This document shows, in pieces, positions 1 to 14,087 of a stretch of 38,549 nt of DNA. A program made the position numbers and the translations under genes. Positions within the stretch are counted from its first letter, which is position 1. Every line of letters starts with the position of its first letter. The DNA is taken from assembly GCA_034659655.1 (NCBI GenBank), contig JAYEHT010000251.1:1-38549 (forward strand), given 5' to 3'. The notes below the pieces were generated by a model. That model saw only the letters and a program-made list of their open reading frames with translations, did not search any database and was not told the origin of the DNA. The DNA comes from Candidatus Aerophobota bacterium (GTDB lineage: Bacteria; Aerophobota; Aerophobia; Aerophobales; JAGGXI01).

Positions 1-2845
1 AGAGAAGAATGAGCTCATAGCTATCGACTCTCCCTATAGTTTAAAGAGAGTGGAGGATTTTATCTCAAGTATAGATAATCCCCAAAAACAGATGAGAGAA
101 GAGGATTTCCAGATAAAGTATGCTCAACTGGAGAAGGTAAAATCATCTATTGAAGAAGAGCTCTCCTCTTATGGAAAGTTAAAAGTAGATAGAGAAAGGT
201 CCCTTCTTCTTGTAGGAGATTTCTCTTATAATCTGGAGAAAATAGAGAAGATTATTAGCCGGCTGGACTCTTTTAAACCCGAAAGGAGAATTTATTCCAT
301 CAGATTTGCCCCCCTCTCTCAAGTAGAAAGAGAGATAAAGGTGCTTCTCTCGGATAAGGGAAAGGTGAAGGTAGATGAGAAGACAGATACTCTTCTCGTT
401 TCAGATGTAGAAAAGAGCTTACTGAAGGTGGATGAGCTGATTAGCAAGCTGGATGTTTTAAGCTCCCAGCTAATTGGCAAGGTAAATTTTAAGGAGGAGG
501 ATTTGAGAGATGCCCTGGATGCAATATCTCTTAAGACAGGTTTAAATATTATTATAGGTCCTCGGGTAGAAGGGAAAGTAACGGCGAGTTTCCCAAGACC
601 AACCCCTGTATTAAAGGCTCTTCAAATAATTCTTGAGGGAAGTGGCTGCGAGTACAGAAGAGAAGATGATGTTATAAAGGTGGCAAAGGCAGGAGTCCCT
701 CTTCCTATTCTCACAAGGAGTTTCCAGATAAAGTATGCCCTGGGTACTGAACTTGTCTCCTCCATTAAGCCGCTTCTTTCTGATAAGGGAACTCTTAAGG
801 TCAACGAGCAGGCAAATACTTTAATAGTTACCGATGCCCAAAAGAATTTAACCGGCATAAAAGATGCTATCTTAAAGCTGGATGAGCCTGTAAGACAGAT
901 GCAGACAAGGAACTTCTCCTTGAGGTTTATCCAGGCTAAAAAAGCTGGCTCTATTTTAAAGAGCCATCTAAGCAAAGCAGGAGAAATTGAAGTCGACTCT
1001 TCAGCCAATTCTCTTCTTGTAAGAGACGTCGCTTATAAGATGAAGGAGATACCATCTTTTCTCTCTTCTTTAGATGTTTTTAAGGAGGCTTTAAAAGTTT
1101 TCCCCCTTAAATTTGCTCTGGCAAGCGAAGTCTCAGAGCTTATTTCTGCTTATCTTAGTCCTGAAGGCAAGCTGAATGTAAACAAAGAGAAGAATGAGCT
1201 CATAGCTATCGACTCTCCCTATAGTTTAAAGAGAGTGGAGGATTTTATCTCAAGTATAGATAATCCCCAAAAACAGATGAGAGAAGAGGATTTCCAGATA
1301 AAGTATGCTCAAATGGAGAAGGTAAAATCATCTATTGAAGAAGAGCTCTCCTCTTATGGAAAGTTAAAAGTAGATAGAGAAAGGTCCCTTCTTCTTGTAG
1401 GAGATTTCTCTTATAATCTGGAAAAGATCAAGAGGATTATTAACCGGTTAGACTCTTTTAAATCCGAAAGGAGAATTTATTCCATCAGATTTGCCCCCCT
1501 CTCTCAGGTAGAAAGAGAGATAAAGGAGCTTCTCTCGGATAAGGGTGAGGTGAAGGTGGATGAGAAGACAGATACTCTTCTCGTTTCAGATGTAGAAAAG
1601 AACTTACTGAAAGTGGATAAGCTGATTAGCAAGCTGGATGTTTTAAGCTCCCAGCTAATTAGCAAGGTAAATTTTAAGGAGGAAGATTTGAGAGATGCTC
1701 TCCATACAATATCTCTTAAGACAGGTTTAAATATTATTGTAGGTCCTCGGGTAGAAGGGAAAGTAACGGCGAGTTTCCCCAGACCAACCCCTGTATTAAA
1801 GGCTCTTCAAATAATTCTTAAGGGAAGTGGCTGCGAGTACAGAAGAGAAGATGATGTTATAAAGGTGGCAAAGGCAGGAGTCCCTCTTCCTATTCTCACA
1901 AGGAGTTTCCAGATAAAGTATGCCCTGGGTACTGAACTTGTCTCCTCCATTAAGCCGCTTCTTTCTGATAAGGGAACTCTTAAGGTCAACGAGCAGGCAA
2001 ATACTTTAATAGTTACCGATGCCCAAAAGAATTTAACCGGCATAAAAGATGCTATCTTAAAGCTGGATGAGCCTGTAAGACAGATGCAGACAAGGAACTT
2101 CTCCTTGAGGTTTATCCAGGCTAAAAAAGCTGGCTCTATTTTAAAGAGCCATCTAAGCAAAGCAGGAGAAATTGAAGTCGACTCTTCAGCCAATTCTCTT
2201 CTTGTAAGAGACGTCGCTTATAAGATGAAGGAGATACCATCTTTTCTCTCTTCTTTAGATGTTTTTAAGGAGGCTTTAAAAGTTTTCCCCCTTAAATTTG
2301 CTCTGGCAAGCGAAGTCTCAGAGCTTATTTCTGCTTATCTTAGTCCTGAAGGCAAGCTGAATGTAAACAAAGAGAAGAATGAGCTCATAGCTATCGACTC
2401 TCCCTATAGTTTAAAGAGAGTGGAGGATTTTATCTCAAGTATAGATAATCCCCAAAAACAGATGAGAGAAGAGGATTTCCAGATAAAGTATGCTCAACTG
2501 GAGAAGGTAAAATCATCTATTGAAGAAGAGCTCTCCTCTTATGGAAAGTTAAAAGTAGATAGAGAAAGGTCCCTTCTTCTTGTAGGAGATTTCTCTTATA
2601 ATCTGGAAAAGATAAAGAGGATTATCAATCGGCTGGACTCTTTTAAATCCGAAAGGAGAATTTATTCCATCAGATTTGCCCCCCTCTCTCAAGTAGAAAG
2701 AGAGATAAAGGTGCTTCTCTCGGATAAGGGTGAGGTGAAGGTAGATGAGAAGACAGATACTCTTCTCGTTTCAGATGTAGAAAAGAGCTTACTGAAGGTG
2801 GATAAGCTGATTAGCAAGCTGGATGTTTTAAGCTCCCAGCTAATT
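1..2845 (+). repeat. Intragenic tandem repeat, period 1185 bp (395 aa = 1 STN + 5 N-domains), about 2.4 copies visible
   Basis: AGAGAAGAATGAGCTCATAG recurs at 1, 1186 and 2371. Similarity ends after AGCTCCCAGCTAATT at 2845. Confidence 0.97.
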
Positions 2846-3358
2846 ACAAAAAAATATTTTTTAAAATATTTAACCTCTAAGGAGGCTAAATTTTATCTTC
2901 AATCAGTAATCAGTGAATATGGAAAGATATCTTTACCTCAAGTTAAAGCCGCAGAAGAGGGAAAAAAGAATATTAAAGAAGATTATATTATCATTCCCCA
3001 GGATAAGAGTGAGAAAGAAATTAAATCTAAATCCCTTAAAGAGAAGGACTCTCCAAAAAATAGCCTTTATGAAGATAAAAACATAATTTATGTAACTGAT
3101 TTAAAAAAGAATATTTCCAGGATAGATGAGAAGATTTCAAGAATGAACAGCTCTTCTATAGGAGAGGCAGAAGATACCAAAACATTTTATATTGAAGAAG
3201 GTTCCCTGGATAATATAGCTCTTACTATAGCCAATATGATTGGAGTAAAACCTGAAGATATAAAAGGAATAGAGTTGACTGAGAAAGAAGGTCAATGGAT
3301 GAAGATGAATGTTCCTTCGCCAAGCATTAATTTAGGGACAATAGGACCCGGAAAATAA
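2..3358 (+). CDS. Giant secretin N-domain (NolW-like/STN) repeat protein, 5'-partial; no secretin beta-barrel in the visible part
   Basis: Frame is open from base 2. About 13 complete ~63-aa N-domains (pattern F-x-L/I-K-Y/F-A ... LS-x-x-G-x-L/V-x-V-D/N ... L-I/L-V-x-D ... LD) and 2 STN/N0-like domains (NFKEEDLRDAL..ISLKTGLNII.GPRVEGKVT). Ends SINLGTIGPGK with no barrel motifs. Confidence 0.85.
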   Translation, partial: EKNELIAIDSPYSLKRVEDFISSIDNPQKQMREEDFQIKYAQLEKVKSSIEEELSSYGKLKVDRERSLLLVGDFSYNLEKIEKIISRLDSFKPERRIYSIRFAPLSQVEREIKVLLSDKGKVKVDEKTDTLLVSDVEKSLLKVDELISKLDVLSSQLIGKVNFKEEDLRDALDAISLKTGLNIIIGPRVEGKVTASFPRPTPVLKALQIILEGSGCEYRREDDVIKVAKAGVPLPILTRSFQIKYALGTELVSSIKPLLSDKGTLKVNEQANTLIVTDAQKNLTGIKDAILKLDEPVRQMQTRNFSLRFIQAKKAGSILKSHLSKAGEIEVDSSANSLLVRDVAYKMKEIPSFLSSLDVFKEALKVFPLKFALASEVSELISAYLSPEGKLNVNKEKNELIAIDSPYSLKRVEDFISSIDNPQKQMREEDFQIKYAQMEKVKSSIEEELSSYGKLKVDRERSLLLVGDFSYNLEKIKRIINRLDSFKSERRIYSIRFAPLSQVEREIKELLSDKGEVKVDEKTDTLLVSDVEKNLLKVDKLISKLDVLSSQLISKVNFKEEDLRDALHTISLKTGLNIIVGPRVEGKVTASFPRPTPVLKALQIILKGSGCEYRREDDVIKVAKAGVPLPILTRSFQIKYALGTELVSSIKPLLSDKGTLKVNEQANTLIVTDAQKNLTGIKDAILKLDEPVRQMQTRNFSLRFIQAKKAGSILKSHLSKAGEIEVDSSANSLLVRDVAYKMKEIPSFLSSLDVFKEALKVFPLKFALASEVSELISAYLSPEGKLNVNKEKNELIAIDSPYSLKRVEDFISSIDNPQKQMREEDFQIKYAQLEKVKSSIEEELSSYGKLKVDRERSLLLVGDFSYNLEKIKRIINRLDSFKSERRIYSIRFAPLSQVEREIKVLLSDKGEVKVDEKTDTLLVSDVEKSLLKVDKLISKLDVLSSQLITKKYFLKYLTSKEAKFYLQSVISEYGKISLPQVKAAEEGKKNIKEDYIIIPQDKSEKEIKSKSLKEKDSPKNSLYEDKNIIYVTDLKKNISRIDEKISRMNSSSIGEAEDTKTFYIEEGSLDNIALTIANMIGVKPEDIKGIELTEKEGQWMKMNVPSPSINLGTIGPGK

Positions 3359-3392
3359 GGATTAGAGGATTAGAGGATTAAAGGATTAGAGG
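3359..3392 (+). repeat. 8-bp tandem repeat (GGATTAGA)x4
   Basis: ggattaga ggattaga ggattaaa ggattaga gg directly after the stop codon at 3356-3358. Confidence 0.85.
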
Positions 3393-3439
3393 GAAAAAAC
3401 AAAAAAAGAGAGAAAAAACAGTATTAGAGGAAGGGAAAG

Positions 3440-5740
3440 ATGAGAAAAATTAAGGCGTTGGTTACAATTTTCTTAGTGGTGATTTTATTTTCTTTCTTTG
3501 ATTTTAAAGTTTTTGCAGAACCCTCCATTATGGTGGATACCTCTACGGGGAGAATTACGGTAAGAGCCCCCAGGAAGAAGTTAAAAGAGATAGAGAAGAT
3601 GATTCCTCAATTCCCCTTAGAGACAAGACAGGTTCAAATTAAGGCAAGAATACTGGAACTTACAGAAAGTGGTGCTCGAAGTTTTGGCATATATATAAAG
3701 AGATTGACGGGTGTTAAGGCTCCTGAAGGAACCGAAGGTGAGGGAACTATTTTAGAGTACGGCCCCAAGACACTTACAGAAATAGCAAGTAAAGAGATAG
3801 GCGGTCTTGGTTTTACTTTTTATAGATTATTAACTGGAGAAGAAGAATTTCAAGCTCTTTTAAATATGCTTGTCTCTAAGGGAGAGGCAAAAGTTCTTTC
3901 CGAACCTCGGGTAACTACCATAAGTGGAGAGGTAGCTGGCATTTATGATGTTGAAGATGTCTCCTATCTTTCCAAGGTAACTACTACAACAGAAGCGGGG
4001 GTCACCAAAGAGACTAAAGAGTATACCTATGTTACCGTAGGGGTAGTTCTTCAAGTGCTTCCCAGGATTATAGGAGGGGAATATGTTCAAGTCTCTATTG
4101 TTCCCTTGTTGAGTGATTACAGCACTGAAAAATTTGGGGCAGACCGTCCTGTGTTTTCTCGTCGTGTCTCTCCCACTAATATTACCGTAAGGAGCGGGGA
4201 ACCTATCATTATTGGAGGATTGATAAAGGAGAAAAAAGAGGAGACTAAAAAGGGCCTTCCTATTCTCTCTGACCTTCCCATTATCGGTGATATTTTTACG
4301 AGCAGAAAAACAACAAAATCGAGAAAAGATCTTCTCATAACTCTCATCCCCCATATACTTAAGCCGAGAGAGATAAAGGGGAGATCTAAAAGGGTTTTCA
4401 CCTTTAAATATGCTCTTGCAGAAGAGGTAGCCAATCGAATAAAAGATATTATCTCTTCTCGAGGGATGATGGAGCTGAATCCAGAAGAGGCCCCTCCTAA
4501 TTCAATTTTAGTAAGGGATTCCGAAGATAAAGTAGAGGTAATCCAGAAGATGTTAAACAGGATAGGGACTTTTGAAGAGCAGAGAAGAGAAGAAGTCTTT
4601 CCTCTAAAGTTTTCTTCTCTCGAAGAGGCCAAAGAGGCCCTCTCTCCTTTACTTTCTTCAAAGGGGAATATCCGTATAGATAAAGAAAAGTATAGTTTAA
4701 TAATAGAAGATGGGGCATATCAATTGATGAGGATAAGGGAGGCTTTGTCTTCTCTCGAGAAACATAATCAAAAGCTACAAAGAAAAAGCTTTTCTTTAAA
4801 ATATGCTGAAGGAAGGGATATTATTCCTCTTTTAAGAGAATTTCTCTCTCCGCGGGGAAATATTTATATAAAAGAGGACAGGTTAGTGGTGGTAGATAAT
4901 AACTGGGTGATTCAGAAGATAGCTGAGGAAATACGGAAATTAGATGATTTTGACTCTCAAAAAAAGAGCAAGGTCTATCTCTTAAAATATGTGAGAGCTG
5001 AGAGACTCTATTCTTCAGAAGAGTTTAAGAGGACACTTTCTTCTATTCTTTATGATAAAGCTACTGTAAAGGTGGATGCTAAGAGAAATGCTCTGGTGGT
5101 TACTGCTCTAAAAAAGGGTCTAGGTAAGGTAGAAAAAGAGGTAGAAAACTTTGATATATATCGACCTGAGGAGATGAGTTATCAGGCAAAATACTGTTTT
5201 GCCGCTAGTTTGTCTAAAAAGATAATTCCTCTTTTGTCTGATAAAGGAGAGATTAAAGTTAATGAGGAGAAAAATTCTATTTTTGTGAAAGATTGTCCCT
5301 ATTATTTGAGTTTAATTAAAGAGAATTTATCCTCTTTTGATAGTTTTAAAAGAGAGAAGAGAGAAGAGACTATTCGTTTAAAATACGCTCCCCTTCCTCA
5401 AATTATCCAGATAATAAGAGAGCTTAAGTCTCCCTCAGCGAAAATTTTAAGTAAAGATAAAGAGAAAAATGAATTTGTGTTTCAGGAAGCCTTGTACCCC
5501 TTAAAGATAATTAAACAAAAAGTTCTTGCTCTGGATAAGTTTGATAAGTGGAAGGGAAAAAGAGCCTACAAGTTAAAGTATATAGAAGCCTCAGATATTG
5601 TTCCTATTATTCGCCTTTTTTTATCAGATAAGGGAAATATTATAATTCATAATCATAATAAAATAGCAGTAATTGATACTCCCTATTATCAAGCTAAAAT
5701 AAAGAATTCTATTGAAGTTTTGGATGCTCCACTGCCATAA
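3440..5740 (+). CDS. Secretin (PilQ/GspD superfamily) with the secretin core near the N-terminus and 7 N-domains at the C-terminus
   Basis: Sec signal peptide MRKIK-hydrophobic-VFA. Secretin motifs QVQIKARILE, VLSEPRVTTISGEVA, VGVVLQVLPRI, SGEPIIIGGL, GLPILSDLPIIGDIF and DLLITLIPHI lie within about aa 65-306, followed by 7 LKY-type N-domains. Confidence 0.88.
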   Translation: MRKIKALVTIFLVVILFSFFDFKVFAEPSIMVDTSTGRITVRAPRKKLKEIEKMIPQFPLETRQVQIKARILELTESGARSFGIYIKRLTGVKAPEGTEGEGTILEYGPKTLTEIASKEIGGLGFTFYRLLTGEEEFQALLNMLVSKGEAKVLSEPRVTTISGEVAGIYDVEDVSYLSKVTTTTEAGVTKETKEYTYVTVGVVLQVLPRIIGGEYVQVSIVPLLSDYSTEKFGADRPVFSRRVSPTNITVRSGEPIIIGGLIKEKKEETKKGLPILSDLPIIGDIFTSRKTTKSRKDLLITLIPHILKPREIKGRSKRVFTFKYALAEEVANRIKDIISSRGMMELNPEEAPPNSILVRDSEDKVEVIQKMLNRIGTFEEQRREEVFPLKFSSLEEAKEALSPLLSSKGNIRIDKEKYSLIIEDGAYQLMRIREALSSLEKHNQKLQRKSFSLKYAEGRDIIPLLREFLSPRGNIYIKEDRLVVVDNNWVIQKIAEEIRKLDDFDSQKKSKVYLLKYVRAERLYSSEEFKRTLSSILYDKATVKVDAKRNALVVTALKKGLGKVEKEVENFDIYRPEEMSYQAKYCFAASLSKKIIPLLSDKGEIKVNEEKNSIFVKDCPYYLSLIKENLSSFDSFKREKREETIRLKYAPLPQIIQIIRELKSPSAKILSKDKEKNEFVFQEALYPLKIIKQKVLALDKFDKWKGKRAYKLKYIEASDIVPIIRLFLSDKGNIIIHNHNKIAVIDTPYYQAKIKNSIEVLDAPLP

Positions 5741-10692: not shown

Positions 10693-11835
10693 ATGGATTT
10701 TGAAATAAGCGATGAACAGAAAGTAATTTTAGATTTAGTAGAAGAAGTTTGTCGCAAAGAATTAGCTCCCTTGGCTGATGAAATTTCCCGGGAAGGAAAA
10801 TTTCCTGAGCAAAATATAAAAAAGTTAGCGGAGCTGGATTTATTTGGCATTACTGTTCCTGATGAATATGGGGGAGTAGGAATGGATTATCTCACCTGGA
10901 CCTTGATTACAGAGAAGATTTGCAAGGCTTGTGCTACTACGGGTTTAGTTTTTGGAGCAAACTTACTTTGCACATATCCTCTCTTGAAATTTGCAAGCGA
11001 GGAGCAAAAGAAGAAATTTCTTCCTTCCTTAGCTCAAGGTAAATCACTGGGTGCTTTTGCTTTAACTGAGCCAGAGGCAGGCTCGGATGCTGGAAATGTC
11101 CAAACTACAGCAAAAAAAGAGGAAGATGGTTATATTTTAAATGGAAACAAAATCTTCATTACTAACGGAGAAGTGGCCAATATCTATATTGTGATTGCTA
11201 ATGTAGATAAGCGGAGTGGAGCACGAGGATTAACTGCTTTTATTGTAGAAAAAGGAAGAAGAGGATTTACTTTTGGACAGCATTTTAAAAAAATGGGTCT
11301 TAATGCTTTGCCTAATGTGGAGTTAATTTTCGACAATTGTAGAGTCCCTCTAGATAATCTTCTATATAAAGAAAGAAGGGGATTTAGGATAGCTATGGAG
11401 ACCTTTGCTGCAGGAAGAATCGGGGTAGGGATAGGGGCTCTGGGGATAGCGGAGGCAGCCTTTGAGAAGGCAAAAGAGTACTCAAAACAGAGAGTGCAGT
11501 TTGGAAGACCTATTTCCAGCTTTCAGGCCGTTCAGCATGCCCTGGCTGATATGGCTACCCAGATAGAGGCAGCTAAACACTTACTTTATCAGGCAGCCTG
11601 GCTTTTAGACCACGGTAAACCTTTTGAGAAGATGGCTTCTATGGGAAAGCTTTATGCCTCAGAGACAGCAATGAAAGTATCTGCTAAAGCAGTTCAAATT
11701 TTTGGAGGATACGGTTATATGAAGGATTATCCTGTCGAGCGTTATATGAGAGAAGCTAAACTTTTTGAGATTATTGAAGGAACCTCGGAAATTCAAAGAG
11801 GAATTATTGCCAACCTGCTTTTTAAGGAAAAGTAA
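10693..11835 (+). CDS. Acyl-CoA dehydrogenase (Bcd/CarC-like)
   Basis: GAFALTEPEAGSDA, NGNKIFITNG, RVQFGRPI, QIFGGYGYM, catalytic IIEGTSEIQR. Confidence 0.95.
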   Translation: MDFEISDEQKVILDLVEEVCRKELAPLADEISREGKFPEQNIKKLAELDLFGITVPDEYGGVGMDYLTWTLITEKICKACATTGLVFGANLLCTYPLLKFASEEQKKKFLPSLAQGKSLGAFALTEPEAGSDAGNVQTTAKKEEDGYILNGNKIFITNGEVANIYIVIANVDKRSGARGLTAFIVEKGRRGFTFGQHFKKMGLNALPNVELIFDNCRVPLDNLLYKERRGFRIAMETFAAGRIGVGIGALGIAEAAFEKAKEYSKQRVQFGRPISSFQAVQHALADMATQIEAAKHLLYQAAWLLDHGKPFEKMASMGKLYASETAMKVSAKAVQIFGGYGYMKDYPVERYMREAKLFEIIEGTSEIQRGIIANLLFKEK

Positions 11836-12627
11836 ATGAATATCATTGTCTGCATTAAACAGGTTCCAAGTACAGAGGAATTACAAAAGGTAAGAATAAA
11901 TCGTGAGAATAACACTTTAATTAGAGAGGAGATCGAAAATATAATAAACCCTTTTGATGAAAATGCTATTGAAGAAGCTCTAAGGTTAAGAGAGAAAAAA
12001 GGGGGTAAGGTTGGAGTTATTTCTATGGGGCCTCCCCAGGCAAAGAGAGCTTTAGAAAGAGCTTTAGCTATGGGAGCAGATGAGGCTGTTCTTTTAAGTG
12101 AGGTCTCTTTTGCAGGGTCCGATACTCTGGCTACTTCTTACACTTTATCTATGGGGATTAGAAAGATGGGGAAATTCGACTTAATTTTATTAGGGAAGCA
12201 GGCTATCGATGGGGATACAGCACAGGTAGGGCCAGGATTAGCTGAATGGCTGAATCTACCTCAGATAACCTATGCTCGAAAAATAGAGATTAATAGCAAG
12301 AAGGTAATATCCGAAAGAAGCCTTGAGGATTCATTTGAGGTTGTGGAAGCTCCTCTTCCTGCTCTGGTTACCGTAACTAAAGAGATAAATGAGCCTCGTT
12401 ACCCTTCCTTAAAGGGAGTTCTTGAAGCAAAAAAGAAGAGGATAACTGTATGGAAATCGGACGATTTAAAGCTGGATAAAAGAAGGATAGGGTTAAATGG
12501 TTCTCCTACTCAGGTAATCAGAATTTTTACTCCCCAATCTCCCGAGAAGGGTGAGATTTTATCAGGAGAAATTTCAGAGGTAGCTGATAAGTTAATTAAA
12601 CGCTTAGAAAAAAAGAAAATTATTTAA
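11836..12627 (+). CDS. etfB: Electron transfer flavoprotein beta subunit
   Basis: IIVCIKQVP, INPFDENAIE, AGSDTLATS, GKQAIDGDTAQVGP, INEPRYPS. Confidence 0.96.
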   Translation: MNIIVCIKQVPSTEELQKVRINRENNTLIREEIENIINPFDENAIEEALRLREKKGGKVGVISMGPPQAKRALERALAMGADEAVLLSEVSFAGSDTLATSYTLSMGIRKMGKFDLILLGKQAIDGDTAQVGPGLAEWLNLPQITYARKIEINSKKVISERSLEDSFEVVEAPLPALVTVTKEINEPRYPSLKGVLEAKKKRITVWKSDDLKLDKRRIGLNGSPTQVIRIFTPQSPEKGEILSGEISEVADKLIKRLEKKKII

Positions 12628-12631
12628 GTTT

Positions 12632-12872
12632 TCTTGATAGCAATAAGAAAGTATTAGATTTCAGGGGATTTATATAGGTATCGAGGGACTTTTCCCGAAG
12701 GAGCCTTATAGGAGCTACCTTAACGAGCCTTCGAGTTGAGGAAAAAGAAAAAATTTATGTTTGAGGAGCGAAGCGAGGAGTTTAAATTTTTCCCGTAGCT
12801 AAGAAGACGAGCAGAAATAATTCAAAGCGGATATACTCTGGCGGTGAGGAAAGAGTCCCGAGATATTCTTGA
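12632..12872. repeat. About 240-bp self-complementary intergenic element (MITE-like or structured RNA), full copy
   Basis: tcgagggacttttcc pairs with ggaaagagtcccga. Internal aaaaattta-tgtttgaggagcgaagcgaggagt-ttaaattttt hairpin. Both ends recur at 36080-36155. Confidence 0.7.
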
Positions 12873-12884
12873 AGGAGCTACTTA

Positions 12885-14087
12885 GTGGAAGGAATTAAAG
12901 TAATACAGGAGAAGTGCACCGGGTGCAAGAAGTGTGTCCCTGCCTGTCCCTTTTCTGCTATTAAAATGGAGAATAAAAAGGCAAAAATACTTTCCAATTG
13001 TAATCTTTGTGGCGCTTGTGTAGATGTTTGCCCTTATGAGGCTATTTTGATAGAAAAAAGAGAGGTAAAGGTAGACGCCTCTTCTTATAGAGGTGTATGG
13101 GTGTTTGCTGAGCAGCGTGAAGGAAAAATAATGCCGGTAACCTATGAGCTTTTGGGAGTGGGGCGGAAATTGGCTGATATATTGGGCGAGGAGCTTTCCG
13201 CTTTTCTTTTGGGAAATGATATGGGAAAAGAAGCTGGCAGATTGCTTTATTATAATGTAGATAGAGTTTATTTAGTAGAAGATAAGATACTCAAGGTTTA
13301 TAGAACTCTTCCTTATACACAAGCTATAGTAGATTTGGTGAGAAAAAACTTTCCCGAAATTATTCTTATGGGAGCTACGAGCATAGGAAGGGACCTTGCT
13401 CCCAGGGTAGCTACTCGCTTGAGGACTGGATTGACAGCTGATTGTACGGGTTTGGAGATAGATAGAAAGGAGAAAAGTCTCATTCAGACTCGCCCTGCGT
13501 TTGGGGGCAATATTATGGCTACCATAGTTTCAGCTCACTCGCGCCCTCAAATAGCTACAGTAAGAGCTAAGGTAATGAAGAAACCCGAGCTCCTCAAGAG
13601 GAAAAGTAAGGGAAAAGTTATCAAAATTAAGCCTCACTTTACTCAAAAAGATAAAATTTTAGAAGTTATTAAATTAATTAAAGAAGAAAGAGAAGTAGAA
13701 GATTTACAGGAAGCAGAGATAATTGTTTCCGGGGGAAGAGGTTTAGGAAAAGCGGAAAATTTTTCTCTTATAAGGGAATTATCTGGGCTTTTAGGAGGAG
13801 CGGTAGGAGCCTCACGAGCGGTAGTAGATGCGGGATGGATTCCTTCTTATCACCAGGTAGGACAGACAGGAAAGACAGTGCAGCCTAAATTATATATTGC
13901 CTGTGGTATTTCGGGAGCTATTCAACATCAGGTAGGAATGAGAACTTCTGAGGTTATTGTAGCTATAAATAAAGACCCTAATGCTCCTATTTTTAATATT
14001 GCTACCTATGGAATTGTAGAGGACCTTCACAAGTTTCTTCCTTTATTAATAAAAAAGATAAAAGAGAAGAAAGATGTTTTCTCGTAA
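12885..14087 (+). CDS. etfA: Electron transfer flavoprotein alpha subunit with an N-terminal 2x[4Fe-4S] ferredoxin domain
   Basis: CTGCKKCVPACP and CNLCGACVDVCP, then TGLTADCT, RPAFGGNI, VSGGRG, GASRAVVD, QVGQTGKTV, GISGAIQH. Confidence 0.95.
   Translation: MEGIKVIQEKCTGCKKCVPACPFSAIKMENKKAKILSNCNLCGACVDVCPYEAILIEKREVKVDASSYRGVWVFAEQREGKIMPVTYELLGVGRKLADILGEELSAFLLGNDMGKEAGRLLYYNVDRVYLVEDKILKVYRTLPYTQAIVDLVRKNFPEIILMGATSIGRDLAPRVATRLRTGLTADCTGLEIDRKEKSLIQTRPAFGGNIMATIVSAHSRPQIATVRAKVMKKPELLKRKSKGKVIKIKPHFTQKDKILEVIKLIKEEREVEDLQEAEIIVSGGRGLGKAENFSLIRELSGLLGGAVGASRAVVDAGWIPSYHQVGQTGKTVQPKLYIACGISGAIQHQVGMRTSEVIVAINKDPNAPIFNIATYGIVEDLHKFLPLLIKKIKEKKDVFS

What the first reader, a model, noticed from the sequence alone, without database searches (positions are those of the whole stretch)
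3172..3640. Split secretin: one N-domain appears divided between two adjacent genes
Seen: the giant repeat protein ends with only the first beta-alpha half of an N-domain (DTKTFYIEEGSLDNIALTIANMIG, compare TRSFQIKYALGTELVSSIKPLLS). After its own RBS and signal peptide, the next protein begins with only the second beta-beta-alpha half (SIMVDTSTGRITVRAPRKKLKEIEKMIPQF), directly before the barrel motif QVQIKARILE. Known: in GspD/PilQ/SctC secretins the N3 domain just before the barrel is intact and needed for ring assembly. Inference: the two proteins rebuild N3 by fold complementation, docking a very long, separately encoded periplasmic conduit onto the pore. The second signal peptide and in-frame stops (TAA 3356, TAG 3371) argue against a sequencing error. 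I know of no described system like this.
Basis: partly seen in the sequence, partly recalled or inferred. Interest (0 to 1): 0.88.

Follow-up and report, generated by a model that had tools for sequence, protein, structure and literature searches.

The report
Two-gene pilus secretin of Aerophobetes
In the uncultured phylum Aerophobetes the outer-membrane pore of the type IV pilus machine is encoded as two neighbouring, separately exported proteins, with the break inside the last small domain before the pore; this is a real and conserved arrangement, but how the two parts join is still unproven.

Summary
The split is real. ORF1 (2-3358, cut by the contig start) is a signal-peptide/N0/N-domain repeat protein. 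ORF2 (3440-5740) has its own signal peptide, then only the beta-beta-alpha half of an N domain, then the secretin barrel, then seven complete N domains after the barrel. The pair closes a pilM-pilN-pilO-pilP operon, so together they stand in for PilQ.

The same two-gene layout, the same 61-residue ORF1 tail and the same ORF2 start occur in 21 of 21 loci examined, from 21 of 31 Aerophobetes genomes held. The frame offset between the genes varies. No fused form turned up in three large searches. Misassembly, pseudogene and readthrough are therefore excluded.

The ORF2 half-domain is strongly supported (hhalign 92-98%). The ORF1 tail resembles the missing beta-alpha half only weakly (P 0.012-0.019), though in the complementary register, and it carries 38 further conserved residues of unknown fold.

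Fold complementation is the most economical docking model but remains untested, because the complex prediction gave no verdict.

Split secretins (rhcC1/rhcC2) are in print for rhizobial type III systems, although those are not broken inside a domain.

New here are a PilQ-type split inside a domain and the N-domain array after the barrel. I rate this a new variant of a known kind, interest about 0.55.

The parts
2..3358 (+). ORF1, the periplasmic part of the split PilQ (1118 aa seen; 5' end cut by the contig start; the start of the gene lies on contig C260 of the same genome)
   Evidence: Pfam finds Secretin_N in 12 stretches (E 7.9e-93) and GspD N0/STN in 2 stretches. The reverse complement of C260 carries pilM, pilN, pilO, pilP and then a 334-aa open-ended ORF with signal peptide plus N0 that overlaps the repeat at the window start.
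1..2846 (+). Tandem 1185-nt repeat inside ORF1 (copies start at 1, 1186 and 2371; 97% identical). Each unit encodes one N0 plus five N domains. Copy number in the genome is unresolved.
   Evidence: Contigs of three DNA runs leave the window sequence at 2846 into the next repeat unit (loose ends).
2846..3151 (+). Penultimate N domain of ORF1 (aa 949-1050), interrupted by a K/E/S-rich insertion
   Evidence: Family N-domain HMM hits at 949-981 (columns 3-35) and 1010-1050 (columns 18-60). AlphaFold2 pLDDT is 73-87 for the domain and 32-36 for the insertion.
3173..3355 (+). Conserved 61-aa C-terminal tail of ORF1: a strand-helix (aa 2-23) weakly like the first half of an N domain, then 38 conserved residues of unknown fold
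   Evidence: Alignment A1 of 21 tails has invariant F5 G10 S11 A16 G24 G32 W42 G55 G58. Mean pairwise identity is 0.65 for aa 1-24, the highest of all segments measured. hhalign gives P 0.012 and 0.019. AlphaFold2 pLDDT is 42-56, with a strand at 2-5 and a helix at 12-23.
3356..3373 (+). ORF1 stop TAA (3356-3358) and a second in-frame stop TAG (3371-3373)
   Evidence: Read.
3358..3392 (.). Tandem octamer array (AGGATTAG x 4.4) in the intergenic spacer, a repeat dispersed through the genome
   Evidence: The window query matched 56 places in G000. There are 91 arrays in 44 of 315 contigs.
3427..3435 (+). Purine-rich ribosome-binding-site-like motif GAGGAAGGG, 4 nt before the ATG
   Evidence: Read. 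GGAG-like motifs stand before the start in most relatives.
3440..5740 (+). ORF2, the pore-forming part of the split PilQ (766 aa)
   Evidence: Pfam Secretin E 7.5e-37 plus Secretin_N in 6 stretches. AlphaFold2 mean pLDDT 88.6. The listed Foldseek matches, ranks 1-28, are all full-length secretin chains (best E 2.3e-12).
3440..3517 (+). Signal peptide of ORF2 (aa 1-26: basic start, hydrophobic core, VFA before the mature end)
   Evidence: Seen in the sequence. An equivalent signal peptide is present in 21 of 21 loci. No signal-peptide predictor was available.
3518..3619 (+). Half N domain (strand-strand-helix, aa 27-60) at the mature N-terminus of ORF2
   Evidence: strands at mature residues 3-7 and 12-16, helix at 19-31.
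3626..4378 (+). Secretin barrel and gate region (aa 63-313)
   Evidence: Profile A2 matches solved secretins GspD, PilQ, InvG, pIV, RcpA and BfpB, with E down to 1.4e-33. AlphaFold2 strands.
4385..5731 (+). Seven complete N domains after the barrel (aa 316-764)
   Evidence: Family N-domain HMM gives 7 full hits. AlphaFold2 gives seven strand-helix-strand-strand-helix units with block-mean pLDDT of 91 or more. Among 153 barrel-bearing proteins tested, only the 7 of this family have N domains after the barrel.

Best explanation
This is the PilQ-type secretin of a type IV pilus machine, encoded as two adjacent genes, and both products are exported by their own signal peptides.

The first protein (ORF1) carries what normally forms the N-terminus of PilQ. 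It has an N0 domain, which is the usual docking site for PilP of the inner-membrane alignment complex. It then has a species-variable number of N0 plus N-domain modules and ends in a conserved 61-residue tail.

The second protein (ORF2) starts, after signal-peptide cleavage, in the middle of the last N domain (N3 of GspD, N1 of PilQ). It continues into the outer-membrane barrel and is followed by 2-7 extra N domains.

I infer that an ancestral single gene was split inside that last N domain. In the periplasm the strand-helix at the start of the ORF1 tail would pack onto the strand-strand-helix stub of ORF2, rebuilding the ring-forming domain non-covalently. The remaining 38 tail residues would act as a clamp. 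That would tether the PilP-binding periplasmic module to the pore.

Shown: the two genes, their domain content, the operon, and conservation of the split and of both junction pieces. Inferred: the physical contact and its geometry, and the role of the N domains after the barrel.
For: - Operon: pilM-pilN-pilO-pilP-ORF1-ORF2 in a relative (Pfam) and in this genome via contig C260.
- Machine parts elsewhere in the genome: PilB- and PilT-like ATPases and BamA.
- ORF2 is a secretin whose mature end is the second half of an N domain (hhalign 92% and 97.9%; alignment to GspD N3).
- ORF2 has no spare strand-helix of its own. All seven N domains after the barrel are complete.
- The only orphan strand-helix nearby is the ORF1 tail. 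It aligns to the complementary profile columns (3-24 against 28-62; 26-48 against 52-92) and beats 200 of 200 and 197 of 200 column shuffles.
- AlphaFold2 folds the preceding ORF1 domain confidently (pLDDT 73-87) but leaves the tail at 42-56. That fits a piece needing a partner, though the evidence is weak.
- The junction pieces are as conserved as the barrel or more so: tail 1-24 0.65, ORF2 stub 0.60, barrel 0.57, neighbouring ORF1 domain 0.48 mean pairwise identity.
- The split is present in 21 of 21 loci, with gaps of -1 to 96 nt and all three frame offsets.
- The tail profile hits 21 of 31 genomes, at 22 places. The 21 places in the loci I fetched lie directly upstream of the secretin. The 22nd (G027:C97) does so by its coordinates.
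- No fused form was found. In a profile search of 1.84 billion representatives the family's 5 full-length members all start the barrel profile at residue 22-34, and the next hit drops from 270 or more bits to 168 bits. A search among longer proteins found only 2 distant Planctomycetes proteins at 29% identity.
Against: - The tail's likeness to a first half-domain is not significant by hhalign's own probability (3.6% and 2.5%), and 3 of 200 shuffles reach it against the classical N3 profile.
- The profile of the 21 tails had no significant match to any solved structure. A protein-atlas look-up of the window's own tail gave no hit with a named family.
- 38 of the 61 tail residues have no place in a simple half-plus-half model.
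- Other secretins in the database begin with a signal peptide and a shortened N domain, or with none at all (P0036, P0094, P0107, P0149). A stub may therefore be tolerated without a partner.
- The number of N domains on both proteins varies (8 to 19 or more per pair), which does not fit a single rigid conduit.
- No contact between the two proteins has been demonstrated by any method here.
Confidence: 0.5

Rival explanations
1. The two proteins do work together as one secretin complex, but they dock in another way. For example, rings of ORF1 N domains could stack on, or nest with, rings of the N domains after the ORF2 barrel. The ORF2 stub would be completed by neighbouring subunits or stay a bare hairpin-helix, and the conserved tail would serve another contact such as peptidoglycan, PilP or a pilotin-like factor.
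For: - ORF2 has 2-7 complete N domains after the barrel that need a role.
- N domains are ring-building modules that stack in solved secretins. Thermus PilQ has six stacked periplasmic rings (abstract of PMC5745081).
- A separately encoded N0-like protein, BfpG, hoops the N3 ring of BfpB by strand pairing (passages of PMC12531336).
- The tail's similarity to a half-domain is weak, and 38 tail residues are unexplained.
Against: - It does not explain why the break point falls exactly between helix 1 and strand 2 of the last N domain in all 21 loci.
- It does not explain why the orphan strand-helix is the most conserved segment measured.
- It does not explain why the two pieces match complementary profile columns.
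Confidence: 0.33
2. ORF2 alone is a sufficient secretin with a vestigial half-domain, and ORF1 is an independent periplasmic protein that merely shares the operon.
For: - Short secretins exist with a signal peptide and a truncated or absent N domain (P0036, P0094, P0107, P0149).
- ORF1 length is very variable, from 589 to at least 1202 aa in relatives and at least 1394 aa here if C260 joins the window directly.
Against: - ORF2 has no N0 domain, which is found only on ORF1. N0 is the PilP-binding domain in known PilQ/GspD systems (established knowledge), so the pilMNOP products would have no partner on ORF2.
- The tail and the stub are conserved at the level of the barrel.
- The two genes are adjacent in every one of the 21 loci fetched. 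The one further tail place found, G027:C97, also lies just upstream of a secretin by its coordinates.
Confidence: 0.13
3. The split is an artefact (misassembly or sequencing error), a recent pseudogene, or is bridged by programmed readthrough or frameshifting into one protein.
For: - In this window the two ORFs are in the same frame.
- A dispersed repeat sits between them, and public contigs break in it: the pieces overlap by only 14 nt (3368-3381), so none of the listed pieces bridges the spacer.
Against: - 20 other genomes of the phylum show the same stop, spacer and signal peptide.
- Frame offsets are 0, 1 and 2 in 5, 7 and 9 loci, and spacers run from -1 to 96 nt.
- A cleavable signal peptide in the middle of a fused protein makes no sense.
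- Contigs of two DNA runs cover the ORF1 stop (3073-3381 and 2892-3381) and the ORF2 start (3368-4072 and 3370-4200) with 0 differences.
Confidence: 0.02

Closest known systems
PilQ secretins of type IVa pilus systems (pilMNOPQ), e.g. Pseudomonas, Vibrio and Thermus PilQ
   Same: - The operon position after pilM, pilN, pilO and pilP.
- An N0 domain, N domains and a secretin barrel that match solved PilQ chains 3jc8, 6ve2, 6w6m and 4av2.
- A stack of many periplasmic N-type rings is known from Thermus PilQ, which has six rings (abstract of PMC5745081).
   Different: - Known PilQ is one polypeptide. Here N0 and most N domains are on one protein and the barrel is on another, with the break inside the last N domain.
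- The barrel subunit carries 2-7 N domains after the barrel. Among the 153 barrel-bearing proteins tested, none outside this family shows that order.
- No AMIN domain was found.
- N0 is repeated inside the chain.
Split secretin of rhizobial-type (Rhc) type III secretion systems: RhcC1/NolW + RhcC2
   Same: A secretin function described as divided between a protein with the N-terminal part and a protein with the C-terminal part, conserved in a whole family of systems, with functional significance stated as unknown (passages of PMC3574062 and PMC3973906).
   Different: - On pNGR234a, NolW is N0 plus one Secretin_N (234 aa). RhcC2 is a 475-aa protein with T2SS-T3SS_pil_N + BON + Secretin next to a CpaD-family gene. 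Pfam shows no half N domain at its start.
- The two genes lie about 11.6 kb apart on opposite strands.
- It is a type III, not a type IV pilus, context.
- I did not test whether the Rhc parts share a domain.
BfpB-BfpG (and TcpC-TcpQ) type IVb secretin complexes
   Same: A separately encoded, separately exported small periplasmic protein with an N0-like fold is an obligatory part of the secretin complex. It binds by adding strands to the partner's sheet and stabilises the N3 ring (passages of PMC12531336).
   Different: - BfpG is a complete domain that hoops the outside of an intact N3 ring.
- BfpB keeps N0 and N3 on the barrel chain.
- Nothing is split inside a domain.
Giant single-chain secretins (2000-4600 aa) in metagenomes
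   Same: Very long N-terminal arrays precede a secretin barrel (P0018 4587 aa, P0051 3684 aa, P0076 2385 aa, P0087 2150 aa; two Planctomycetes proteins of 2156 and 2320 aa carrying Secretin_N and Secretin). Their content was not examined here.
   Different: They are fused, with the barrel at the C-terminal end. They are only distantly related, at or below 149 bits against 270 or more bits within the family.

Membership tests
Secretin superfamily (Pfam PF00263; GspD/PilQ/SctC/pIV) | C-terminal secretin domain recognised above the curated threshold | tested here: met
   ORF2 aa 144-308 scores 127 bits against a cut-off of 27.5. The profile of 21 family members hits 23 solved secretin sequences, with best E 1.4e-33.
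Secretin superfamily (Pfam PF00263; GspD/PilQ/SctC/pIV) | Barrel/gate fold like solved secretins | tested here: met
   AlphaFold2 model has mean pLDDT 88.6. The listed Foldseek matches at ranks 1-28 are all full-length secretin chains (9k8v, 5w68, 6ve2, 6pee, 7ofh ...), with E down to 2.3e-12. TM-scores are low (0.13-0.20 on the query) because the model is a long multi-domain monomer.
Secretin superfamily (Pfam PF00263; GspD/PilQ/SctC/pIV) | A complete N domain (N3 of GspD, N1 of PilQ) on the same chain directly before the barrel | tested here: not met
   Only profile columns 28-62 of 65 are present at the mature N-terminus of ORF2. This holds in all 21 loci.
Secretin superfamily (Pfam PF00263; GspD/PilQ/SctC/pIV) | N0 domain at the N-terminus of the barrel-bearing chain | tested here: not met
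   N0/STN is found only on ORF1 and none on ORF2.
Secretin superfamily (Pfam PF00263; GspD/PilQ/SctC/pIV) | Assembly into a 12-17-mer ring in an outer membrane | not testable with these tools
   Only indirect evidence: the genome encodes an Omp85/BamA homologue (160 bits), so an outer membrane is likely.
Type IVa pilus PilQ (pilMNOPQ operon) | Gene follows pilM, pilN, pilO and pilP on the same strand | tested here: met
   Pfam finds PilM_2, PilN, PilO and PilP (the PilP match, 21.7 bits, is below its 25.6-bit cut-off) in the four genes before the ORF1 homologue of L018. The same ORF sizes and order occur on G000 contig C260, which ends in the ORF1 repeat.
Type IVa pilus PilQ (pilMNOPQ operon) | Assembly and retraction ATPases present in the genome | tested here: met
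   T2SSE family hits on C11 (435 bits, 580-aa frame) and C161 (155 bits, 357-aa frame). Pilins, PilC and the prepilin peptidase were not searched.
Rhc-type split secretin (RhcC1/RhcC2) | C-terminal part built as T2SS-T3SS_pil_N + BON + Secretin, in a type III secretion cluster | tested here: not met
   RhcC2 of pNGR234a has those three domains and ORF2 has none of the first two. The context here is pilMNOP, not type III secretion.
Protein rebuilt by fold complementation of two gene products | The two fragments form one domain in a complex | tested here: inconclusive
   The sequence registers are complementary, but the first half is weak.

The most novel reading that the evidence does not exclude
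Aerophobetes build an obligate two-protein secretin. One ring-forming N domain is reconstituted from a strand-helix supplied by a separately exported periplasmic protein and a strand-strand-helix stub on the pore subunit. The pore subunit additionally hangs a second N-domain array from the C-terminal end of the barrel. The pilus would then pass through, or alongside, two N-domain assemblies whose lengths change quickly by tandem duplication. This would be the first secretin with a domain shared between two chains and the first with ring modules after the barrel.
Probability: 0.4. Interest if true: 0.72.

Novelty: new variant of a known kind. Interest (0 to 1): 0.55.

Why it matters
[quoted passage not shown] All structurally understood ones carry the last N domain and the barrel on one chain, and that domain drives ring assembly.

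A phylum in which the break lies inside that domain would be a natural experiment on how secretin rings nucleate, and on how the pore is aligned with the inner-membrane platform without a covalent link. The variable number of N-domain modules on both partners, and the N domains after the barrel, bear on how envelope-spanning conduits adapt to unusual cell envelopes in uncultured lineages.

It also offers a compact natural split site that could be tested as a docking module. If the two parts do not interact through the junction, the finding shrinks to an unusual gene arrangement.

Tried and rejected
1. Complex prediction. Complex prediction was run on ORF2 mature residues 1-300 (alignment A2) with the 61-aa tail (alignment A1). 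The score was 0.05 in both runs against a mark of 0.32. The verdict was 'no answer', and the partner's fold was uncertain. It counts neither for nor against binding. No second job was available.

2. Tail as a truncated N0/STN domain. hhalign against 15 family N0 domains gave P 0.44, so this was rejected.

3. Tail against solved structures. The best match was E 0.0052 to a designed helical repeat over 23 residues, which is not informative.

4. Tail in the ESM Atlas. No cluster with a family was found and the best score was 0.92 to unnamed clusters.

5. Word-based homologue search with the last 89 residues of ORF1 among proteins of 614-1957 aa. It found only the query itself. The method needs shared 5-residue words and missed even the known relatives, so it says nothing.

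6. Genomic context of short secretins that start with a signal peptide and a shortened N domain (P0036, P0094, P0107). I used the one metagenome scan on them. It returned 49 loci at 20-39% identity. None of the 50 barrel-bearing ORFs had the barrel within 75 residues of an intact N-terminus, so none was a relative of the short forms. Whether other lineages have partner genes stays open.

7. Circular permutation of ORF2. An orphan strand-helix at its own C-terminus would be expected. This was rejected because the last domain (aa 707-764) is complete.

8. Reads.
- Only assembled contigs of public runs were available.
- In three DNA runs the pieces stop in the octamer repeat and overlap by 14 nt, so none of the listed pieces bridges the spacer.
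- Adjacency therefore rests on the genome's own contig and on synteny in 20 other genomes.
- An RNA-library run holds contigs about 96% identical to ORF2 3468-4200 and nothing on the ORF1 tail. This proves neither transcription nor its absence.

9. Tools and papers.
- Supplementary files of papers were not consulted. Additional file 5 of PMC3574062 (alignments of RhcC1 and RhcC2) may bear on where the Rhc split lies.
- 'Not in print' rests on four full-text searches. None returned a paper on a split PilQ or on N domains after the barrel. Subscription journals are not covered.

10. Genomes left out. Of the 27 relatives with a match, I fetched 20. I left out G005, G007, G015, G016, G021, G023 and G026, whose best matches lacked the N-terminal part of the query or were a different secretin at 28-30% identity.

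Full report
WHAT IS THERE

The window is contig C251 of a 315-contig, 85.7%-complete metagenome-assembled genome. Record titles of its relatives name the lineage Candidatus Aerophobetes.

ORF1 (2-3358, + strand) runs off the contig start. The 1118 residues seen hold 12 Secretin_N stretches and 2 GspD-N0/STN stretches. They are arranged in a 1185-nt tandem repeat that is 97% identical between copies. Its missing 5' end lies on contig C260. Read in reverse complement, C260 carries four ORFs of 352, 188, 218 and 143 aa and then a 334-aa open-ended ORF. That ORF has a signal peptide and an N0 domain, and it ends in the same repeat with which the window begins. In the relative L018 the four equivalent genes are pilM, pilN, pilO and pilP by Pfam; the PilP match is sub-threshold, at 21.7 bits against a 25.6-bit cut-off.

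ORF2 (3440-5740, 766 aa) follows after 81 nt. Downstream are purE, eno, ftsH and ruvC, so ORF2 closes the operon. The genome also encodes PilB- and PilT-like ATPases and a BamA homologue. ORF1 plus ORF2 thus occupy the place of pilQ.

ANATOMY OF THE JUNCTION

The mature N-terminus of ORF2 is the second half of an N domain. This rests on four results:
- It aligns to columns 28-62 of a 65-column profile that I built from 198 distinct N domains of this family (hhalign prob 92%, E 5.9e-7).
- It aligns to the second half of the last N domain of 65 classical secretins (prob 97.9%, E 6.4e-13).
- It aligns to the end of N3 in solved GspD/ExeD 6i1x.
- AlphaFold2 models it as strand-strand-helix with pLDDT 80-88, followed by the barrel.

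The ORF1 side is less clear:
- The last 61 residues form a conserved unit with nine invariant positions.
- Residues 2-23 align to columns 3-24 of the family N-domain profile and to columns 26-48 of the classical N3 profile. Those are exactly the columns ORF2 lacks. The alignment is only at P 0.012 and 0.019 (hhalign probabilities 3.6% and 2.5%).
- Of 200 column-shuffled tails, 0 and 3 respectively reached the observed scores.
- AlphaFold2 predicts a strand (2-5) and a helix (12-23) there, but with pLDDT of only 42-56. The preceding N domain is modelled at 73-87.
- The other 38 tail residues (invariant G32, W42, G55, G58) match nothing.

The 'second half' is therefore established. The 'first half' is a reasonable but weak reading.

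ORF2 continues after the barrel with seven complete N domains, by the family HMM and by AlphaFold2 (block-mean pLDDT of 91 or more). I tested 153 barrel-bearing proteins: the 150 best representatives of a profile search over 1.84 billion proteins, plus session proteins. Only the 7 belonging to this family have N domains after the barrel. My HMM is family-trained and may miss divergent domains.

IS IT REAL AND CONSERVED?

P0002 (ORF2) finds a match in 28 of 31 genomes, G000 included, and these 31 are the whole phylum as held. I fetched the 20 relatives whose match includes the N-terminus.

In all 21 loci (window plus 20):
- A same-strand upstream ORF ends -1 to 96 nt before a secretin gene that begins with a signal peptide and the same stub.
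- That upstream ORF ends with the same tail.
- The frame offset between the two genes is 0, 1 or 2 in 5, 7 and 9 loci, which excludes a conserved readthrough or frameshift.

The tail profile hits 21 of 31 genomes, at 22 places. The 21 places that lie in the fetched loci are directly upstream of the secretin. The second G027 place (C97) is so by its coordinates.

Mean pairwise identity is 0.65 for tail residues 1-24, 0.60 for the ORF2 stub, 0.57 for the barrel, 0.52 for the rest of the tail, 0.48 for the neighbouring ORF1 domain and 0.27 for its insertion.

No fused relative exists in what could be searched:
- The family forms a discrete group. Its 5 full-length representatives all start the barrel profile at residue 22-34. 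The next hit drops from 270 or more bits to 168 bits and is a classical secretin.
- A search restricted to proteins longer than 1342 aa found only two distant Planctomycetes proteins.

Public contigs cover the ORF1 stop and the ORF2 start without differences. They break in the intergenic octamer repeat, so they do not independently bridge it.

MECHANISM

The chain order across the two genes is that of an unsplit PilQ/GspD: signal peptide, N0, N domains and strand-helix on ORF1, then strand-strand-helix and barrel on ORF2. The simplest history is a fission inside the last N domain, with gain of a signal peptide on the second gene and of a 38-residue extension on the first.

N0, the domain that PilP binds in known systems (established knowledge), is only on ORF1. 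The pore is only on ORF2. The pilMNOP alignment complex can therefore reach the pore only if the two proteins associate.

The junction pieces are the natural candidates for that contact. They are adjacent in ancestral topology, complementary in profile register, as conserved as the barrel, and the only incomplete domains in either protein. I put this composite-domain model at about 0.5.

The main rival (about 0.33) keeps the partnership but places the contact elsewhere, for instance between ORF1 rings and the N domains after the ORF2 barrel.

A point against any simple rigid conduit is the variation in domain number. Whole upstream proteins range from 589 to 1101 aa, with 1-2 N0 and 5-12 N domains, and ORF2 homologues carry 2-7 N domains after the barrel. 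Within one genus the upstream protein is 605 aa in G001. In G000 it is at least 1394 aa, if C260 joins the window directly.

COMPARISON WITH WHAT IS KNOWN

- Split secretin genes are in print for the rhizobial (Rhc) family of type III systems, as rhcC1/nolW and rhcC2, with the functional meaning stated as unknown (passages of PMC3574062 and PMC3973906). On pNGR234a I found NolW to be N0 plus one Secretin_N (234 aa). RhcC2 is T2SS-T3SS_pil_N + BON + Secretin (475 aa), beside a CpaD-family gene about 11.6 kb away on the other strand. That is a different anatomy, with no visible half-domain.
- BfpG/BfpB shows that a separately exported N0-like protein can be an obligatory, strand-paired part of a secretin complex (PMC12531336, passages).
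- Thermus PilQ shows long stacks of N-type rings on a single chain (PMC5745081, abstract).
- Four full-text searches found no paper on a split PilQ, on a domain shared between two secretin chains, or on N domains after the barrel. The library lacks most subscription journals.

VERDICT

The finding is a real, phylum-wide, two-gene PilQ with a break inside the last N domain and an unprecedented array of N domains after the barrel. The fold-complementation idea is plausible and testable but not demonstrated. It is a new variant of a known kind (split secretins and accessory N0-like subunits exist), of moderate to good interest for secretin and type IV pilus structural biology.

Noticed in passing
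window 3358-3392, and 91 places in the genome: The spacer between the two genes holds a tandem octamer array (GGATTAGA-type, 4.4 copies). Arrays of 2-8 units occur 91 times in 44 of 315 contigs. The single octamer is about 4 times over-represented (305 seen against 78 expected). Public contigs break at it, and its word depth is very high in both DNA and RNA libraries.
   Followed up: partly
window 1-2846 and G000 contig C260: The 1185-nt repeat of ORF1 (97% identical copies, each encoding one N0 and five N domains) broke the assembly. C260 (pilMNOP plus the ORF1 start) ends in the same repeat, so the true copy number and ORF1 length (at least about 1394 aa) are unknown. The same-genus relative G001 has a single unit (605 aa), which points to recent tandem expansion.
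   Followed up: partly
21 loci (window, L010, L017-L035): Domain numbers vary on both partners. The upstream proteins have 1-3 N0 and 5-14 full N domains, taking the whole ORFs and the longest cut ones. The secretin subunits have 2-7 N domains after the barrel, and the two counts show no obvious compensation.
   Followed up: partly
window 2945-3028 (ORF1 aa 982-1009): The penultimate N domain of ORF1 is interrupted between strand 2 and strand 3 by a lysine/glutamate/serine-rich insertion. It is present but poorly conserved in relatives (0.27 identity) and AlphaFold2 models it as disordered.
   Followed up: no
G027 contigs C30 and C97: One relative has two copies of the tail-plus-secretin gene pair. 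The C97 match reads through stop codons beyond about residue 510, which may simply be the end of a short form.
   Followed up: no
relatives, e.g. G014:C18:12993-13826, G027:C130:25708-26553, G028:C28:5211-6062: Several Aerophobetes genomes carry a second secretin in a frame of 550-782 aa, matching ORF2 at 30-34% identity over query residues 25-313. Its upstream domains were not examined. None was found in G000, which is 85.7% complete.
   Followed up: no
window 3468-4200: Contigs from a metatranscriptome library of another study match ORF2 at about 96% identity (7 differences in 171 nt, 22 in 553 nt). One carries the relative's ATG and signal-peptide start as a loose end. Nothing from that run lies on the ORF1 tail. 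This hints at expression of a close relative but does not prove it.
   Followed up: no
L068 (pNGR234a 83000-99500): The C-terminal half of the rhizobial split secretin (RhcC2) has the domain make-up of a Tad-type CpaC/RcpA secretin (T2SS-T3SS_pil_N + BON + Secretin) and sits beside a CpaD-family gene. NolW has a type III N0 domain. The Rhc split secretin may therefore be a pairing of parts of different origin rather than a simple fission.
   Followed up: partly
proteins P0036, P0094, P0107, P0149: Small secretins of 292-362 aa exist in metagenomes. After a signal peptide they start with a shortened N domain (helix-strand-strand-helix) or directly with the barrel. Their gene neighbourhoods could not be retrieved, so it is unknown whether they too have separate partner proteins.
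   Followed up: partly
window 10693-14087: An acyl-CoA dehydrogenase is followed by ETF beta and a ferredoxin-fused ETF alpha. This layout is typical of electron-bifurcating acyl-CoA dehydrogenase/ETF complexes and is unrelated to the finding.
   Followed up: no
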